Source of the DNA: the human T2T-CHM13v2.0 reference genome, Homo sapiens
Assembly (NCBI RefSeq): GCF_009914755.1
Contig: NC_060946.1
Length of the DNA stretch: 64,000 nt
Reading direction: 5' to 3' (one strand)
The notes under the pieces were generated by a model. The model did not search any database, had not been told where the DNA came from, and was given only the letters and a program-made list of their open reading frames with translations. Numbering within the stretch: position 1 is the first letter of the stretch; every line of letters begins with the position of its first letter. A program made the translations under genes and the position numbers. Below, in pieces: positions 20,005-55,990 of this stretch.

Positions 20005-20525
20005 ATGGTGGCTGAGGCTGGTTTAATGCCAGCTGCCTCCTCTGTGAAGAAGCCATTTGGTCTCAGAAGCAAGATGGGCAAGTGGTGCCGCCACTGCTTC
20101 CCCTGGTGCAGGGGGAGCGGCAAGAGCAACGTGGGCACTTCTGGAGACCACGACGATTCTGCTATGAAGACACTCAGGAGCAAGATGGGCAAGTGGTGCC
20201 GCCACTGCTTCCCCTGGTGCAGGGGGAGCGGCAAGAGCAACGTGGGCACTTCTGGAGACCACGACGACTCTGCTATGAAGACACTCAGGAGCAAGATGGG
20301 CAAGTGGTGCTGCCACTGCTTCCCCTGCTGCAGGGGGAGCGGCAAGAGCAAGGTGGGCCCTTGGGGAGACTACGACGACAGCGCTTTCATGGAGCCGAGG
20401 TACCACGTCCGTCGAGAAGATCTGGACAAGCTCCACAGAGCTGCCTGGTGGGGTAAAGTCCCCAGAAAGGATCTCATCGTCATGCTCAAGGACACTGACA
20501 TGAACAAGAAGGACAAGCAAAAGAG
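20005..20525 (+). CDS. POTEG/POTEM/POTEH: POTE ankyrin domain family (group 3, 508-aa type) coding exon 1: Cys-rich repeats and start of ankyrin region
   Basis: MVAEAG...[24 protein letters not shown] x3...KDKQKR; donor AG|GTAACC at 20526; paralog cannot be fixed from sequence alone. Confidence 0.95.
20062..20394 (+). repeat. Three coding 111-bp (37-aa) Cys-rich repeats
   Basis: ctcag(a/g)agcaagatgggcaagtggtgc at 20062, 20173, 20284. Confidence 0.95.
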
Positions 20526-47049: not shown

Positions 47050-48668
47050 TATATATATTTTTATATATCTCCATTTTCTTTATTCCATTCATCAGTTCAT
47101 GGACACTGGCTGATTCCATATCTTTGCATATTGTGAATTGTGCTGCAGTAAACATATGTGTGCGGGTGTCTTTGTGAGAGTACGATTTCTTTTATTTTGT
47201 GTAGCTATCCAGAAATGAGAATGCTGGATAAAATGGTAGGATCTATTTTTAGTTCTTTGAGAACTCTCCATACTGTTGTCCATAGATTTGTATGAATTTG
47301 CATTCCCACCAGCAGTGTATCACTGTTCTCCTTTCACCACATCCACACCAACATCTGTTGTTTTTTGTTTTCTAATAGTGGCCATTCTGGCTGCAGCGAG
47401 GTGATATCTCACTGTCATTTTATTGTGCATTTTCCTGATGATTCGAGATATTTCGCATGTTTTTATATGCTTGTTTACCGTTTGTACATCTTCTTTTGAG
47501 AAATGGCTATTCATGTAATTTGGCCACATTCTAATGGAAATATTTGTGTTTTTCCTGTTGATTTGTTTGAGTTTCTTGTAGGTTATAGATACTAGTCCTT
47601 TGTTAGATTCATAATTTTCAAATTTTCTTCCCATTGTATAGGTTGTTGGTTTACTCTGATGATTATTTCTTTTGCTGTGCTGAAGGTTTTTAGTTTAATT
47701 AGGTCTTATTTATTTTCATTTTTGTTGCATTGGCTTTAAGGTCTTCATCATAAATTCTTTGCCTAGGCCAATGTTTTCAGGTCTTAGGTTTGGGCCTTTC
47801 ATCCATCTTGAATTAATTTTTGTATATGTTGAGAGATAGAGATCCAGTTTCATTCCTCCACATGTGGCTCTCTTTTTTTCCCAGCACTATTTACTGAATA
47901 ACCTGTACTTTCTCCAGTGTATGTTTTTGTATGCTTGCTCAGAGATCACTTGGTTGTAGCGGCTTTATTTCTGAGTTGTCTGTTCTGTTCCGTTGATCTA
48001 TGTATCTGTTTTTATACCAGTACCACGCTGTTTCTGTTACTGTGGCCTTAGAGTATAATTTGAAGTCAGGTAACGTGATGCCAACATATTTGTTCCTTTT
48101 GCTTGGTATGTCTGTTGCTATTCAGGCTCTTTTGTGGTCCTACATGAATGTCAGCATTTTAAAATAATTCTGTGAAGAATGACATTGGTACTTTGGTAGG
48201 AATTGTATCGACTATGTAGACTGCTTTGGGCACTGTGGTCATTTTCACTATATCAGTTCTTTCAGTCCATGAACATAGGATGTATTTTCATTTGTTTGTG
48301 TCATCTGTTATTTTCTTTGGTGGTGTTTTCCAGTTATCTTTATATAGATCACTCACCTTTTTCATTGAGCATATTCCTAGGTATTTCACACTTTTTTGCA
48401 GCCACTGTAAAAGGGATTGGATTGTTGATATGAACTCTCAGCTTGGTCGTAGTTGGTGTGTAGTGGTGCTACTGATTGGTATTCATTCATTTTGTAACCT
48501 CTGAGACTTTACTGAATTCATTTATCAAATCTAGGAGTGTTTTGTAGGAATCTTCAGGGTTTTCTAGGTATAAGGTAATATCATTGGTGAAGAGATAGTT
48601 TGACTTCCTCTTTTCCAATTTGGATGCCCTTTATTTCTCTTGCCCAATTGCTTTGCCTAGGACTTCCC
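47050..48668 (-). mobile_element. L1 (L1PB/L1MA-type) ORF2 3' part, antisense
   Basis: Minus-strand ORF 47320..47634 is degenerate L1 ORF2 C-terminus. Confidence 0.88.
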
Positions 48669-48911
48669 AGTTTTATTCTTAATATGCATGAAATAAAAGT
48701 AAAATGGAAAATGCTTAATGATGAGTTTATTTCACATCTCTCTCTCATACACAGATAAAATTAATTCAAAGTCCTATGTTAAAAACATAATATTAGACCC
48801 TGTCTTGTTCTAAAAGGAATTTCTAAGTTGTTTATAAAATACATAGGAATCAAGAATATAAGTGGAAAATGTTTCCAAAAAATAAACACAAAAAGTATGA
48901 GTTATAGGCCA

Positions 48912-49410
48912 TAGACCAGTACCAGTCCCTGGCCTGTTAGGACCTGGGCCACACAGCAGGAAGTTAGAGGCAGGTGAGCAAGCAAAGCTTCATCTGTTTG
49001 CAGCCACTCTCTGTCGCTCGCATTACCACCCGAGCTGCTCCTCCTGTCAGATCAGCGGTGGCATTAGATCGTCCTAAGAGTGTGACCTGAACCCTGTTGT
49101 AAGTTGCTCATGCAGGGGATATAGGTTGTTCACTCCTTATGTGAATCAAATGCCTTTATGATCTGTCACCATCTCCCATCACCCCCAGATGGGACCATCT
49201 AGTCGCAGGAAAGCAAGCTCAGGGCTCCCACTGATTCTACATTTTGGTGAGTTATATAATTATTTCATTATATATTAATAATAATAGAAATAAAGTGCAC
49301 AATGAATGTAATGTACTTGAATCATCCTGGAACCATCCCAAACCTCAGGTTCCTGGAAAAATTATCTTCCGCAAAACCAGTCCCTGGTGCCAGCATGGTT
49401 GGGGATACTC
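48912..49410 (-). mobile_element. MER1A-like DNA transposon
   Basis: Reverse-complement similarity to 32692-33218. Confidence 0.8.
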
Positions 49411-49556
49411 GGTTAACAGATGTGAGACCCCTTTGCCTTGTATTGGAATAATGTGCAGATATACATTGTGTGAATGACATCTGATGGCGCCATCTTGCCC
49501 TGTAGATCATTTTGGGGACACCTCCAGTATTTCATGAAAATTAATTTTTTTTCTAG

Positions 49557-49674
49557 TGATGAACAAAATGATACTCAGAAGCAACTTTCTGAAGAACAGA
49601 ACACTGGAATATTACAAGATGAGATTCTGATTCATGAAGAAAAGCAGATAGAAGTGGCTGAAAATGAATTCTGA
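49557..49674 (+). CDS. POTEG/POTEM/POTEH: POTE coding exon 10 ending at premature TGA (DEQNDTQKQ...IEVAENEF*)
   Basis: tctAG|t...TGA g|GTATTT; exons 1-10 sum to 1527 nt = 508 aa + stop. Confidence 0.93.
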
Positions 49675-51182
49675 GGTATTTAGTTATTTTCAAATGTTTT
49701 TATATGTGTATATATTTTTTAAAAACTATGTATTTTGGATATACAAAGGATTTTTAAGTCATATATATGTGTGTATATATTCTATATATCCTTTGTCATG
49801 TATCTATATCTGTACATATAGGAGAAAGCCATGTTCTTAATTCAACTCCATTTGCCTGCAACAGTCGAGTAGTGACCTTCACAATGGCCTCAATCCAAAG
49901 GAGAAGCATTTGATATTTTTCATAAGAATTGATGATCTTTCCATATCAAAACTAAGTTTTGCTACTAAAAACAAATTTTCTAGTTTTTGGACATTAGTTT
50001 TGTTAAAAAATGTTAATAGAGAAGTCAATTGATGGTTTTCACTGATAGGAAAGTAGGAAATGTATAGTTGGGTCAGAGGCCACATTGTGGATGTCATCAT
50101 CCTTACTTTTGTGGAGAGGAACACTTTGCTCCAAGTAATTTCTCATTTCAATATAAAGAGGTTTGAAAACAATGACATGCCATGATATACATTTAGTGAT
50201 AATTTATTGATATGTATTTTGTTCCTAGAGAAATAGTTGAGTATATTTCCCCTATTTCACAGTTACTACTGTTTCAAACATTATAAAGAGGAAATAAAAG
50301 TTATCACAATGACAAATAATCTCATGATTTCTAAGAAAATCTCTATAAGTTGCATCTTACTTACCATTCATATTTTGAAACAAAAGGCTTCTTTTGTATT
50401 TATATATTTACACCACAGAAGTAACTGTGGTTTTGTGGAGGATCACTAGAAGTAGCATCAGCAGACCTGGGGAAAATCCTGCATCTTGTATATATTTTTT
50501 GACTTCTCCTTTTAAGAATCACGATCTTAAATGAGTTCAGTGTTGTATGTAGGAGTGCAATGCTTAGATACAGATGTGTACAGTGTAGAAGGGTACAGTG
50601 CTTAGATTTAAGTTATGAATAAATATAATTCTTATAACTGAGTATAAAAATATTAGAAATGTAGAATATTGGTAAAACGTTCTTCAGTAAAAGAAACTTA
50701 AAGAACTTTGAGAAATTGCTTCTGTCCAAATATATGCATAGCTAAGGCTCTTAGGATGGTGTGGTTGATAGGTTAGATATCAGAGTATAAACCTAATCTT
50801 AAAAATATAGTCAAATGTATTAATCTTATATTTTATGCCTCTGGGTTTTTTGTAACTCAGAGAAAGGCTTTTTTAATTCTGAGATTCTTAAAAATCCTCT
50901 AGTGATTTATTTTTCATAGTCTTTAAATAAATATTTAAACTTTTAGGAATTCAGGAGCAGATTCCTAAAAGTTTAAATCTTTATTTAAAGACTATGAAAA
51001 ATAAATCACTAGAGGAATTTACACTCTGCTAGGTTTGGAGTTTTGTCCAGTTTTTTCCAGTTAAATATCCACTATGGGGATTCTTTCATTATACAAATAC
51101 AGATGTTATTTTTTAATTTCAGAAGAAATCATGATATATCAATCTATTGAGTGCTAACTAAAAGTTCCCTTTGTTTACTTAG

Positions 51183-52508
51183 CTTTCTCTTAGTTATAAG
51201 AAAGAAAAAGACCTCTTGCATGAAAATAGTACGTTGCAGGAAGAAATTGTCATGCTAAGACTGGAACTAGACATAATGAAACATCAGAGCCAGCTAAGAG
51301 AAAAGAAATATTTGGAGGAAATTGAAAGTGTGGAAAAAAAGAATGATAATCTTTTAAAGGGTCTACAACTGAATGAGCTCACCATGGATGATGATACTGC
51401 CGTGCTCGTCATTGACAACGGCTCTGGCATGTGCAAGGCCGGCTTTGCAGGTGACGATGCCCCCCGGGCTGTCTTCCCTTCCATCGTGGGGTGCCCCAGG
51501 CACCAGAACATGATGGGGGGCATGCGTCAGATGGAGTCCTATGTGGGCAATGAGGCCCAGAGCAAGAGAGGCATCCTGACCCTGAAGTACCCCATGGAGC
51601 ACGGCATCATCACCAACTGGGAAGACATGGAGAAGATCTGGCACCACACCTTCTACAATGAGCTGCGTGTGGCTCCCGAGGAGCACCCCATCCTGCTGAC
51701 CGAGGCACCCCTGAACCCCAAGGCCAACCGTGAGAAGATGACCCAGATCATGTTTGAGACCTTCAACACCCCAGCCATGTACGTGGCCATCCAAGCCGTG
51801 CTGTCCTTGTACACCTCTGGCCGTACTACTGGCATTGTGATGGACTCTGGTGACGGGGTCACCCACACTGTGCCCATCTATGAGGGGAATGCCCTCCCCC
51901 ATGCCACCCTGCGCCTAGACCTGGCTGGCCGGGAACTGACTGACTACCTCATGAAGATCCTCACCGAGCGTGGCTATAGGTTCACCACCATGGCCGAGCA
52001 GGAAATCGTGCGTGACATCACAGAGAAGCTGTGCTATGTTGCCCTGGACTTCGAGCAGGAGATGGCCACAGCGGCCTCCAGCTCCTCCCTAGAGAACAGC
52101 TATGAGCTGCCCAACGGCCAGGTCATCACCATTAGCAACGAGCGGTTCCACTGCCCCGAGGTGCTCTTCCAGCCTTGCTTCCTGGGCATGGAATCCTGTG
52201 GCATCCACGAAACTGCCTTCAACTCTATCATGAAGTCTGATGTGGACATCCACAAAGACCTGTACACCAACACAGTGCTATCTGGTGGCACCACCATGTA
52301 CCCTGGCATTGCCCACAGGATGCAGAAGGAGATCGCTGCCCTGGCGCCTAGCACGATGAAGATCAAGATTGTTGCTCCTCCCAAGCGCAAGTACTCCGTG
52401 TGGGTCGGTGGCTCCATCCTGGCCTCGCTGTCCACCTTCCAGCAGATGTGGATCAGCAAGCAGGAGTATGAGTCAGGCCCCTCCATTGTCCACCGCAAAT
52501 GCTTCTAG
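51183..52508 (+). CDS. Terminal POTE exon with open ANKRD26-like (67 codons) + beta-actin-like (374 aa, ATG 51384) frame; out of frame with the canonical CDS, translation unproven
   Basis: cttAG|ctt tct ctt agt ([15 protein letters not shown]...[11 protein letters not shown]...HRKCF*); no stop for 441 codons. Confidence 0.7.
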
Positions 52509-53103
52509 GTGGACGCTGACTTAGTTGCATTACACCCTTTCTTGACAAAACCAAACTTCGCAGAAAGCCACATGAGATTGGTATGGCTTTAATTGTTTTC
52601 TTATTTCATTTTTTGTTTTGTTTTTTATTGGCTTGACTCAGGATTTAAAAACTGGAATGGTGAAGGCGAGAGCAGTTGGTTGGAGTGAGCTTCCCCCAAA
52701 GTTCTACAATGTGGCTGAGGACTTTGATCGTACATTGTTTTTCTTTTCAATAGTCATTCCAAATATTGTGAGATGCATTGTTTCAGGAAGCCCCTTGCCC
52801 TTCTAAAAGCCACCCCACTTCTCTCTAAGGAGAATGGCCCAGTCCTCTCCCTAATTCACACAGGGGAGGTGATGGCATTGCTTTCATGCAAATTACGTAA
52901 TGCAAAATTTTTTGAATCTTTGCCTAAATACTTTTTAATTTTGTTTTATTTAGAATGATCAGCCTTCGCGGCCCCCCTTTTTTGTACCCCAACTTGGGGT
53001 GTATGAAGGCTTTTGGTCTCCCTGAGAGTGGCTGGAGGCAGCCAGGGCTTACCTGTACTCTGACTTAAGGAGAGTTGGAAAAAAGTGCACACCTTAAAAA
53101 AAA
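51378..53103 (+). pseudogene. ACTB retrocopy: ACTB retrocopy (end of 5' UTR, CDS, 3' UTR, short poly(A)) inserted in the POTE terminal exon
   Basis: ctcaccATGGATGATGAT start; intronless actin; ACTB-like 3' UTR ending agtgcacaccttaaaaaaaa; AATGAG on both flanks (51372-51377, 53107-53112). Confidence 0.95.
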
Positions 53104-53106
53104 TTC

Positions 53107-53479
53107 AATGAGGAAGCATTAACAAAAACAGTATTTCTGTACAGTGGACAGCTTAGCATGTTGACAACTGAGAATAAAATGCTCAGTTCTGAACTGGACA
53201 ATGTAAGACACAACGACGAAACACTGGAAATGGAAATTCAATTACATCATTGTAGACTGGCTACTGCTCTACATGATTGTGACCAAAGTCAGAGAGCTGA
53301 AAGAGACTTCTTTCCAGAGAACAAGACATGAACAGGTTTATTTACAGAAGACAATGAATTCTCATTTGTCTAACCTAAAAGATTACAGAATCTTTCTCAA
53401 CAAATCTAATGTAGACAGTAAAATCAACAGGCTAAAAATTAAGTTCCATGAAACAAGATAAAACTCTGAGAGAAAAGAT
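53107..53479 (+). pseudogene. Orphaned remainder of the ancestral ANKRD26-like coiled-coil exon
   Basis: [30 protein letters not shown]...[13 protein letters not shown] / SFQRTRHE...MNSHLSNLKD...KFHETR; frameshifted, with stops. Confidence 0.85.
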
Positions 53480-55990
53480 GGGGCAGGCCGCCATCTTTCC
53501 CATTCGGGCAACTTAGTCATTCCAGCCTGAGGGCTTTGGAGAGTACAAACTGACCAGGGAAAGAAGAGATCCCAGAGCACAGCATAGCTGCTTTACCAAA
53601 TCATGGCCAGACTGCTTCTGTAAGCAGGCCCCTGATCCTGTTCCACCTCACTGGACAGGACCTCCCAACTGGGGCCTCCAGCTACCCCCACCAGCATCCC
53701 TTGGCCAATGGAAATTTGAAATGTTCCTGGGACAGAGCTCCTGGAGAGAGGGGCAGGCCACCACCTTTGCTGTTTGGGTGACTAGCCGTTCTGGCCTGCA
53801 GGCTTTGGAGAGCCCAAGCTGACAAGGGGTAGAAGAGGTGCCTCAGCACAGCACAGCCACGCTACGAAAACATGGCCAGACTCTTGTTTAAGTCAGTCCC
53901 CGAACACATTTCTAGTCAGTGGGTGAAGTCTTTCAACCAGGGTCTCTGGCTACCTTGACTGCTGTTCTCTGGCCGACAGAGGTCTCAGGCCTCCCTGAGT
54001 CAGAGCTCCCGGGGGGAGGACCAGATTGTCATCTTTGCTGTTTGGGTGACCCAGCCATTTCAGCCTTAGGGCTTCAGAGTGTCTGAGGTAGCCAGGGGCT
54101 GAAGTGAACCCCCAGCACAGCACAGCTGCTCTATAAAAACGTGGCCAGACTTTTTCTTTAAGCAAGTCCCTGTTCTTATTCCTCCTGACTAGGTAAGACT
54201 TCTCAACTTGCCTCCAGCCACATCTTATTGGTGTGTTCAGATTGGCAACAGGTTCGTACCTCAGTGGTACAGAGCTCCCAGAGGAAGGGGTAGGCTATCA
54301 TCTTCCCTGGAAAATACGAGTCAATTAGGGACTTGAGGGGACCCCCAGCATTCCACAGCAGCCCTTCAGAAAAGTGGCCAGACTCTGTACTTGATGGGCA
54401 GATCCTCCTGGCCTGTGTCTCTAGCCAGCCCACCACTGGAGCTATCAAGCCAGTAGCAACTCAGCAGTTCCTTGGACAGAGCTTCCAGGAGCAAATGAAA
54501 TCCTTTCTGCCACTGCCTTTGCAGTGAACTGCCCTTGCTATCCTCAGAAGATATATCACGGGAGCAAAGACCCTAAGTGCCATATCAACACCTCCAATAA
54601 GCTGCAGTTGACCCAAAGAACAAGCCAATCCATCTCCCACAGGTACCACACACACTCCACTACTCATCACCAGACAGGGAACCCTGGCTTGGGCCCACAG
54701 CACAGACCCTCCATCCTGGGCCGATTACACTGAGTGATTGCTAACTCACATGTCTCTGGGATGGAGCACCCAGGAGACAAGCAAAGTGGTGGAGCAGCAA
54801 GTCAGGTGATGTGGAGCCCAGAGGGCAGGGACAGCTATCTCTCTAGGCTCCACTTGCCCTTGTGAGACACTTTGTCCCAGCACTTTAGGAATGCTGAGGT
54901 CAGACCAGCCACATCTCATGTGCAAGATTGCCCAGCAGACATCAGGTCTGAGAGTTCCCCTTTTAAAAAAGGGGACTTGCTTAAAAAAGAAGTCTAGCCA
55001 CGATTGTGTAGAGCAGCTGTGCTGTGCTGGAGATTCACTTTTGAGAGAGTTCTCCTCTGAGACCTGATCTTTAGAGGCTGGGCAGTCTTGCACATGAGAT
55101 GGGGCTGGTCTGATCTCAGCACTCCTTAGTCTGCTTGCCTCTCCCAGGGCCCCAGCCTGGCCACACCTGCTTACAGGGCACTCTCAGATGCCCATACCAT
55201 AGTTTCTGTGCTAGTGGACCGTACCATATCAGTGGAGAGCTGCAGCAAGGTGGCACCTACGGCCACGCACCAGCCTGCACATTACCTCTCCATACTGCAG
55301 CCCTTTATATGGAAACTTCCTACATCACTTTGCTGTGTGTGTTTACACAGGTGGATTTTGCTTTACTTGCACTGACAGCACACAGGAGGGCAGCACACAC
55401 CCCAACCCACATCAACTGCCATTAAAGAAAAGAAATTTCAGCCCATAATTTCATGTCCAGCAAAATTAGGCATCATAAGTGAAGGAGAAATGAGATCCTT
55501 TTCAGACAAGCAAATGCTGAGGGAATTCAATATCACCAGATCTACCTTACAAGAGCTCCTGAAGGAAGCACTAAATATAGAAAGAAAAAACCATCACCAG
55601 CCACTACAAAAATGCAGTGAAGAACGCAGTGAATTACGCAGTCCAGTGATGCTAAAAACCAAACACATACGTTAAGTCTGCAAAATAACCAGCTGACAGC
55701 ATGACGACAGGATAAAATCCACACATACCATTACTAACCTTAAATGAAAATGGGCTAAATGCTCCCATTGAAAGACACGGGGCAAGCTGGATAAAGAACC
55801 AAGACCCACTGGAGTATGCTGTCTTCAAGAAACCCATCTCACATGCGGTGGCATACATAGGCTCAAAATAAAGGAATGGAGAAAAATATTTCAAGCAAAT
55901 GGAAAACAGAAAAAAGCAGGTGTTGCACTCCTACTTTCTGACAAAACAGACTATGCGAATAAAGATAAAAAAGAGAAGGACATTACAAAG
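53480..55990 (+). mobile_element. Older L1PA-type 5' UTR (~270-bp internal repeats), ORF1 C-terminus and ORF2 start; rearranged and deleted
   Basis: gggcaggcc...ctttgctgtttggg units near 53480, 53750, 54020; ORF1 motif SFSDKQMLREF...LQELLKEAL at 55490; ORF2 start near 55701. Confidence 0.8.

What the first reader, a model, noticed from the sequence alone, without database searches (positions are those of the whole stretch)
49557..52508. Latent POTE-actin fusion: intact 441-codon terminal frame behind a 2-nt deletion, restorable by splicing
Seen: exon 10 reads gct gaa aat gaa ttc TGA g|gt. Adding 2 A gives gaa aaa atg aat tct gag (EKMNSE, as recalled for POTEE) in frame with exon 11, a 951-aa fusion. 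The TGA ends 1 nt before the last junction, so EJC-dependent NMD should not trigger if exon 11 is terminal. The downstream frame has no stop or frameshift despite ~38 actin substitutions, and its one deletion is in frame. Rescue routes: (a) skip exon 10 and use the second acceptor ctttctcttAG (51192-93), giving cac ag|t tat aag in frame, 907 aa; (b) exon 8 or 7 (phase 0) to 51183; (c) initiation at ctcaccATGG 51384 or in-frame ATGs 51252/51276. Established: chr14/22-type POTEs are considered actin-less proteins. Inference: this copy may still yield an actin product.
Basis: partly seen in the sequence, partly recalled or inferred. Interest (0 to 1): 0.8.

Follow-up and report, generated by a model that had tools for sequence, protein, structure and literature searches.

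The report
POTEH's stranded, still-open actin frame
The last exon of human POTEH carries an old beta-actin retrocopy whose reading frame is still open but was cut off from the gene by a small slippage deletion; this is already in print, and the frame looks intact only because the break is young.

Summary
Exon 10 ends ...AENEF-TGA one base before the donor. Exon 11 opens a 441-codon frame, 51183-52508. It has 67 coiled-coil codons and then 374 codons of beta-actin, with 38 replacements and one in-frame deletion.

The "2-nt deletion" is real against the chr2 POTE-actin genes. Against the ancestral state, kept by POTEKP and the actin-less POTEs, it is the loss of one GAAAA unit of a two-unit repeat.

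The interpretation gains little:
- The frameshift and the out-of-CDS actin retrogene of POTEG/H/M are published (PMC7073761).
- Both chr14 copies share the identical exon 10 and also keep the frame.
- Changes on the branch leading to the three copies look constrained, 6 non-synonymous to 10 synonymous (p=0.009). Changes among the copies look neutral, 12 to 4.
- A stop-free frame after 16 such changes has probability 0.75.
- 25 of the 38 replacements are shared with chr2 copies.

So the open frame fits a young break, not selection. Whether it is translated is untested. One precedent exists: a 419-aa POTEKP ORF from the equivalent ATG (PMC13272525).

The parts
49557..49675 (+). POTEH exon 10. 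The frame ends ...AENEF, with TGA at 49672-49674 one base before the donor.
   Evidence: The exon and its flanks (281 nt) are 100% identical in both chr14 copies.
49659..49663 (+). The single remaining GAAAA unit. POTEKP and the actin-less POTEs have GAAAAGAAAA here. The four in-frame chr2 POTE-actin genes have lost 3 nt instead. This 5-nt loss is the frameshift.
   Evidence: Alignment of 16 paralogous exon 10 copies. Gap placed at 49660.
49676..51182 (+). Intron 10, with a 60-nt-arm hairpin at 50891-51020.
   Evidence: PMC7073761 lists a long inverted repeat in this intron.
51183..51375 (+). First part of exon 11: ANKRD26/CCDC144-type coiled coil, in frame with the actin part. It holds the tandem acceptor AGs at 51181-82 and 51192-93, in-frame ATGs at 51252 and 51276, and an out-of-frame ATG at 51220.
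51369..51377 (+). 5' copy of the target-site duplication (cTGAATGAG).
   Evidence: the empty sites in the chr21 and chr15 POTE copies carry this sequence once.
51376..53103 (+). 5'-truncated, intronless beta-actin (ACTB) retrocopy. It keeps 6-8 nt of 5'UTR, the CDS and the 3'UTR, and ends in an 8-A run at 53096-53103.
   Evidence: five ACTB exons match contiguously at 88-93% identity..
51384..52508 (+). Actin reading frame: 374 codons plus TAG, with the native ctcaccATGg start context.
   Evidence: Pfam Actin 459 bits.
52464..52469 (+). Site of the POTEH-only 3-nt deletion (actin D363). The chr14 copies read tatgatgag and POTEH reads tatgag.
53104..53112 (+). 3' copy of the target-site duplication (TTCAATGAG), followed by the rest of the ancestral POTE coiled-coil exon.

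Best explanation
This is the known group IV state of the POTE-actin locus.

1. An ACTB mRNA was retroposed into the coiled-coil terminal exon of an ancestral POTE gene. It is intronless, 5'-truncated, and has an A-run and a roughly 9-nt target-site duplication. The result was an in-frame POTE-actin fusion.
2. In the lineage leading to POTEH, POTEG and POTEM, one unit of a GAAAAGAAAA tandem repeat at the 3' end of exon 10 was lost, most simply by replication slippage. The shifted frame runs into TGA one base before the junction, which leaves the actin frame in the 3'UTR.
3. The actin frame was under purifying selection for most of the branch leading to the three copies, so the break came late on that branch. 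Since then it has drifted neutrally.
4. It is still open because too few mutations have fallen on it. The only indel is a triplet-repeat slip.

Shown here: the anatomy, the shared frameshift, and the pattern of constraint followed by neutrality. Inferred: slippage as the mechanism, the late date of the break, and the absence of a functional actin product.
For: Anatomy of the retrocopy:
- Five ACTB exons match contiguously from 51376 to about 53100.
- The chr21 and chr15 POTE copies show the empty site, and the window shows a duplicated TGAATGAG/TCAATGAG and an A-run.

The frameshift:
- 3 of 16 aligned paralogous exon 10 copies (chr22 and both chr14) have GCTGAAAATG. Five copies, POTEKP among them, keep GAAAAGAAAATG exactly, and seven further actin-less copies keep the full length with one or two base changes. 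Four chr2 copies have an in-frame 3-nt loss.
- The 281-nt exon 10 region is 100% identical in the three group IV copies.

The terminal frame is open in 8 of 8 POTE-actin loci of the genome.

Selection, from site patterns polarised with ACTB and tested:
- Group IV stem: 6 non-synonymous to 10 synonymous, against 69% non-synonymous expected from the realised mutation spectrum. One-sided p=0.009, omega about 0.27.
- Within group IV: 12 to 4 against 68% expected, p=0.79, omega about 1.39.
- P(12 or more of 16 non-synonymous under stem-level constraint) = 0.002.
- P(no stop in 16 substitutions) = 0.75.

Rates:
- Within-IV variable sites per site are 0.0124 in the actin frame and 0.0073-0.0083 in the introns.
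- Fixed IV-versus-III differences are 0.028 in the actin frame and 0.041-0.055 in the introns and the ACTB 3'UTR.

Other points:
- 25 of the 38 replacements against ACTB are shared with chr2 copies, so they predate the group IV history.
- The POTEH-only deletion removes one ATG/TGA unit of tatgatgag.
- PMC7073761 (passages read) states that the retrogene is in 8 of 14 POTEs, in frame in four and 'out of the CDS' in POTEG/H/M/KP. It states that a frameshift created the stop, and dates the G/H/M duplications to about 1.06 and 0.44 Mya.
Against: - The contrast between stem and within-group counts is only marginal on its own (Fisher two-sided p=0.073). With 16 changes, weak constraint (omega about 0.7-1) cannot be excluded.
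- The constrained stem could also mean that selection on the actin frame continued after an early frameshift and lapsed only recently. Without ape orthologues the break cannot be dated.
- Neutral drift does not exclude translation. The equivalent frame of POTEKP, whose upstream exons are also disconnected, is reported as a translated 419-aa ORF. That report has weak ribosome tracks and four tier-3 peptides (PMC13272525, passages read).
- Only one haplotype (this assembly) was examined.
Confidence: 0.8

Rival explanations
1. The actin frame is still translated at a low level, without being under selection. It would start at ATG 51252 (418 aa), 51276 or 51384 (374 aa). The template would be the POTEH mRNA, read as a downstream ORF, or a shorter transcript starting in intron 10 or exon 11. 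This is compatible with the best explanation on the evolutionary side.
For: - The frame is open and the native ACTB start context ctcaccATGg is kept.
- A stop 1 nt before the last annotated junction should spare the mRNA from EJC-dependent NMD (textbook rule).
- PMC13272525 reports a 419-aa POTEKP ORF from Ribo-seq and mass spectrometry. Its length equals the POTEKP terminal frame (442 codons) counted from the ATG equivalent to 51252. This matching is my inference from lengths.
Against: - Reinitiation after a 508-codon main ORF is inefficient in eukaryotes (established knowledge).
- An out-of-frame ATG at 51220 comes first and opens a 12-codon ORF that runs past the ATG at 51252.
- The authors of PMC13272525 themselves note weak footprint tracks and mapping ambiguity.
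- Neither copy-specific peptide string occurs in the full text of any paper in the library (0 occurrences each). No paper in the library pairs POTEG, POTEH or POTEM with 'downstream ORF' or 'Ribo-seq'.
- POTEH is expressed significantly only in testis and prostate (PMC6244393).
Confidence: 0.15
2. This is the reader's reading: a latent fusion. Alternative splicing restores a POTE-actin fusion protein from POTEH, and this use keeps the frame open. The routes are exon 9 to the second acceptor at 51194, exon 8 or 7 to 51183, or a cryptic donor in exon 10.
For: - All routes are in frame: 907, 855 and 840 aa, plus a route I found, donor GAA|GTGGCT after 49653 joined to 51183, giving 943 aa.
- The second AG at 51192-93 follows a pyrimidine run.
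- The stem branch shows constraint.
Against: - The three copies have evolved neutrally since they diverged (12 non-synonymous to 4 synonymous; stem-level constraint rejected at 0.002).
- Route (a) needs two non-canonical events at once. With the canonical acceptor, skipping exon 10 stops after 494 aa.
- The cryptic donor lacks both G at -1 and G at +5 of the donor consensus. I judged this by eye and did not score it.
- POTEH has the lowest Pfam Actin score of the eight copies.
- No junction data could be examined.
Confidence: 0.04

Closest known systems
POTE-actin fusion genes POTEE, POTEF, POTEI and POTEJ (chr2, group III)
   Same: Same exon 10/11 layout, same ACTB retrocopy at the same insertion site, and a terminal frame of 441-442 codons that is 92-93% identical in protein.
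   Different: In those genes exon 10 reads ...GAA AAA ATG AAT TCT GAG and runs into exon 11 in frame. POTEH is 2 nt shorter there and stops. Group III also carries a duplication of exons 6-9 (PMC7073761).
POTEG and POTEM (chr14, group IV)
   Same: Identical exon 10 with the same GAAAA loss and TGA. The actin frame is open and 98-99% identical. PMC7073761 Table 2 lists the retrogene as 'out of the CDS'.
   Different: They keep actin D363 (1329 nt against 1326 nt) and score 469-472 bits against Pfam Actin, where POTEH scores 459.
POTEKP (chr2, annotated pseudogene; 'putative beta-actin-like protein 3', a name I recall from UniProt)
   Same: An open actin frame behind a broken upstream gene. A 419-aa ORF from the ATG equivalent to 51252 has been reported from Ribo-seq and mass spectrometry (PMC13272525).
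   Different: It keeps the ancestral GAAAAGAAAA. Its exon 10 is disrupted instead by an Alu-like insertion at the donor. Its lineage shows 14 non-synonymous to 10 synonymous private changes.
Ordinary ACTB processed pseudogenes and the retrogene ACTBL2
   Same: Intronless ACTB copies made by retroposition. Many are found in this genome.
   Different: Most carry stops. This copy was exapted as the C-terminal module of a host gene before being cut off from it. The chr5 copy (83% identity, open frame) is probably ACTBL2, a stand-alone gene. That name is recalled, not tested.

Membership tests
POTE-actin chimeric gene (group III type) | ACTB retrocopy inside the terminal coiled-coil exon of a POTE gene | tested here: met
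POTE-actin chimeric gene (group III type) | Reading frame continuous from exon 10 into the actin module | tested here: not met
   TGA at 49672-74. The canonical splice product stops at codon 509.
POTE-actin chimeric gene (group III type) | A fusion protein of about 120 kDa is expressed (Lee et al. 2006; abstract recalled, paper not held) | not testable with these tools
   No expression data are available here.
Group IV POTE (POTEG/H/M) | Actin retrogene present but outside the CDS because of a frameshift before it | tested here: met
   The definition comes from PMC7073761.
Group IV POTE (POTEG/H/M) | Clusters with the chr14 copies apart from the chr2 copies | tested here: met
   The ML tree of the terminal frame gives group IV 100% bootstrap support.
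L1-mediated processed retrocopy | No introns, 3' A-run, target-site duplication, empty site in paralogues | tested here: met
   The two duplicated copies differ at the first base and at one internal base (cTGAATGAG and tTCAATGAG).
Functional actin | Purifying selection on the protein sequence | tested here: not met
   Within group IV: 12 non-synonymous to 4 synonymous, omega about 1.39.

The most novel reading that the evidence does not exclude
The stranded frame of POTEH (and of POTEG and POTEM) is translated in testis, prostate or tumours. The product would be an N-terminally extended, divergent actin of 418-419 aa starting at the ATG at 51252, as reported for POTEKP. Alternatively, rare splice forms rebuild a POTE-actin fusion. 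Either way, human cells would make a lineage-restricted actin-like protein, and possible tumour antigen, from what is annotated as 3'UTR.
Probability: 0.12. Interest if true: 0.5.

Novelty: already known. Interest (0 to 1): 0.2.

Why it matters
If the actin frame were used, three more human genes would join the POTE-actin class. Proteomics hits on 'actin-like' peptides would then need re-assignment, and a cancer-testis locus would gain a new product.

As it stands, the locus is a tidy example of a recently decapitated domain. The data separate a constrained phase from a neutral phase and identify the break as a one-step tandem-repeat slip. This refines the published account but does not change it.

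Tried and rejected
I built no ancestor. I used a plain ML tree and site-pattern counts among the living copies, with ACTB giving the direction of change.
- Lee et al. 2006 (PNAS 103:17885), the primary paper on the frameshift, is not held. I rely on how PMC7073761 cites it and on my recollection of its abstract. Searches failed on search-term format.
- Supplements of PMC7073761 (Table S1, Figure S6) and of PMC13272525 were not opened. They may hold transcript structures and the POTEKP peptides.
- Literature searches turned up no report of translation for this frame (details under the rival explanations).
- Considered and rejected: protection of the frame by gene conversion from chr2. The group IV copies keep their own fixed differences (31 in the actin frame).
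- Considered and rejected: the absence of indels in the frame as evidence of current constraint. Over the whole IV-III divergence the frame has 1 indel where the intron rate predicts 7.35 (P=0.005), or 3.58 at the rate of the 3'UTR and remaining exon (P=0.13). That deficit belongs to the constrained stem and to the in-frame group III lineage. Within group IV there are only two indels in 6 kb, one of them in the frame.
- Not attempted: scoring of splice sites (no tool), and any RNA-seq, Ribo-seq or mass-spectrometry search (no data).

Full report
**What is there.** Exon 10 of POTEH (49557-49675) is read in the phase set by exons 1-9. It ends ...IEVAENEF, followed by TGA at 49672-74, one more base, and the GT donor. 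About 1.5 kb downstream, exon 11 begins at 51183 behind the acceptor AG at 51181-82. A second AG lies at 51192-93. From 51183 a frame of 441 codons runs to TAG at 52506-08, and it is the only long frame there.

Residues 4-69 match the CCDC144C/ANKRD26-type coiled coil, and residues 70-441 match Pfam Actin at 458 bits. The best solved relatives are human cytoplasmic beta-actin chains (E about 1e-229). Against beta-actin there are 38 replacements and one missing residue, D363.

**Origin of the actin part.** Five ACTB coding exons and the 3'UTR match the window contiguously from 51376 to about 53100 at 88-93% identity. The copy keeps only 6-8 nt of 5'UTR and ends in an 8-A run at 53096-53103. The actin-less POTE copies on chr21 and chr15 show the empty site ...TGAATGAAGAAGCATTAAC... 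The window has that sequence on both sides of the insert, cTGAATGAG at 51369-77 and TTCAATGAG at 53104-12. This is a textbook L1-type processed retrocopy inserted into the coiled-coil terminal exon. The remainder of that exon continues after 53112.

**The break.** I aligned 16 paralogous exon 10 copies from the same genome.
- Five copies keep GAAAAGAAAATGAATTCTGAG exactly: POTEKP and the chr18, chr8 (47.4 Mb), chr7 and chr17 copies. Seven further actin-less copies on chr21, chr15, chr8, chr7 and chr17 keep the full length with one or two base changes.
- The four in-frame chr2 POTE-actin genes read GAAAAAATGAATTCTGAG.
- chr22 and both chr14 copies read GAAAATGAATTCTGAG.

POTEKP carries the actin insert yet keeps the full repeat. 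The simplest history is therefore a single 5-nt loss of one GAAAA unit from a two-unit tandem repeat, independent of the 3-nt loss in group III. This is an inference. The tree places POTEKP with group III at only 77% support. The 281 bases around exon 10 are 100% identical in the three group IV copies, so the break predates their duplication.

**Is the open frame remarkable?** All 8 of 8 POTE-actin terminal frames in the genome are open. That includes POTEKP and both chr14 copies.

I polarised changes in the actin part with ACTB.
- The branch leading to the three group IV copies carries 16 changes, 6 non-synonymous and 10 synonymous.
- The changes among the three copies number 16 (plus one complex site), 12 non-synonymous and 4 synonymous.

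I took the neutral expectation from all possible changes of the same mutation classes in this very frame. The classes were CpG transitions, other transitions and transversions. The expectation is 68-69% non-synonymous.
- The stem departs from it (one-sided p=0.009, omega about 0.27).
- The within-group set does not (p=0.79, omega about 1.39).
- If the stem's constraint still held, 12 or more of 16 non-synonymous changes would have probability 0.002.
- The direct stem-versus-within contrast is marginal (Fisher p=0.073).

Rates agree with this.
- Fixed differences between groups IV and III are 0.028 per site in the actin frame, against 0.041-0.047 in the introns and 0.055 in the ACTB 3'UTR.
- Variation within group IV is 0.0124 in the frame, against 0.0073-0.0083 in the introns.

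The probability that 16 substitutions of the observed spectrum create no stop is 0.75. The one indel in the frame, private to POTEH, removes one unit of tatgatgag. It is a triplet slip and in frame by construction.

Of the 38 replacements against ACTB, 18 are shared with all five chr2 copies and 7 with some of them. Only 13 belong to the group IV lineage. "Intact despite 38 substitutions" therefore overstates the time spent unprotected. POTEH has the lowest Pfam Actin score of the eight copies, 459 against 468-473.5 bits.

**Reading.** The actin module was a selected part of a fusion protein for most of the group IV stem. The GAAAA slip came late, and the frame has drifted since. It survives because little time has passed. 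PMC7073761 dates the G/H/M duplications to about 1.06 and 0.44 Mya.

The alternative cannot be excluded without ape orthologues. In it the break was early, selection on the frame continued, and it lapsed only recently. That history is less economical.

**Rescue routes.** The arithmetic is right.
- Exon 9 joined to 51194 gives 907 aa.
- Exon 8 or exon 7 joined to 51183 gives 855 or 840 aa.
- Skipping exon 10 with the canonical acceptor stops after 494 aa.
- I found one more in-frame route: donor GAA|GTGGCT after 49653 joined to 51183, giving 943 aa. By eye the donor is poor.

None of these routes could be tested here.

For internal initiation, the ATGs at 51252, 51276 and 51384 are in frame, and the last keeps the ACTB context. 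An out-of-frame ATG at 51220 comes first.

There is one relevant precedent. PMC13272525 (passages read) reports 'POTEKP lncORF2', 419 aa, from Ribo-seq ORF calling and four unique tier-3 peptides, and concedes weak footprint tracks. The length of 419 aa equals the 442-codon POTEKP frame counted from the ATG equivalent to 51252. This matching is my inference. Translation of the POTEH frame is therefore conceivable but unshown.

**What is in print.**
- PMC7073761 (passages and tables read) lists the beta-actin retrogene in 8 of 14 POTE genes. It is in frame in four and 'out of the CDS' in POTEG, POTEH, POTEM and POTEKP. The paper states, citing Lee et al. 2006, that a frameshift created a stop before the actin module.
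- PMC6244393 (passages read) tabulates POTEG/H/M as lacking the actin fusion and notes POTEH expression in testis and prostate only.
- Lee et al. 2006 itself is not held.
- Two full-text searches found no paper on translation of the group IV actin frame and none containing either copy-specific peptide string.

**Verdict.** The new details are the one-step GAAAA loss, the constrained-then-neutral pattern and the triplet slip. They favour an ordinary young relic over a latent gene. Interest is low. A modest residual chance remains that the frame is translated, as reported for POTEKP.

Noticed in passing
window 20062-20379: Exon 1 holds 2.9 copies of a 111-nt (37-aa) tandem repeat. With these the annotated CDS gives 508 aa in this assembly. 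I recall 545 aa for the reference POTEH protein, which would be one repeat more. PMC7073761 Table 2 lists '3-4' cysteine repeats for POTEH.
   Followed up: partly
window 51528: The RefSeq model ends exon 11 at 51528, which is 145 nt into the actin frame in G+C-rich sequence with no A-run or AATAAA nearby. The model's 3' end is probably incomplete. An AATAAA lies at 53174-79 in the resumed POTE exon.
   Followed up: no
L032 (G000:C2:132057061-132060258), exon 10 of the POTEKP copy: The exon 10 donor is replaced by Alu-like sequence (...aattctgg|gccgggcacggtggctcacgcctgt), and the match resumes about 350 nt later. This copy keeps the ancestral GAAAAGAAAA and is a mosaic of group III-like and group IV-like sites by region.
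   Followed up: partly
window 47980-54005 versus the two chr14 copies: In this 6-kb stretch the chr22 copy groups with one chr14 copy (13.31 Mb) against the other (13.71 Mb). The evidence is 98% bootstrap support, six shared derived sites in the frame, and a shared 2-nt intron 10 indel. PMC7073761 has POTEH splitting first. Gene conversion or a different duplication order could explain the difference.
   Followed up: no
window 50891-51020: A near-perfect hairpin with 60-nt arms, 97% complementary and 10 nt apart, sits in intron 10 just upstream of exon 11. It is probably part of the published POTE long inverted repeat.
   Followed up: no
window 37991: Exon 7 uses a GC donor rather than GT.
   Followed up: no
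chr2 POTE-actin copies, L004-L008: The in-frame group III actin modules also evolve loosely. The group III stem has 8 non-synonymous to 6 synonymous changes, and among the chr2 copies the count is 21 to 10. Variation in the frame (0.023 per site) exceeds that in the introns (0.012-0.016). Constraint on the actin part of the expressed fusions looks weak too.
   Followed up: partly
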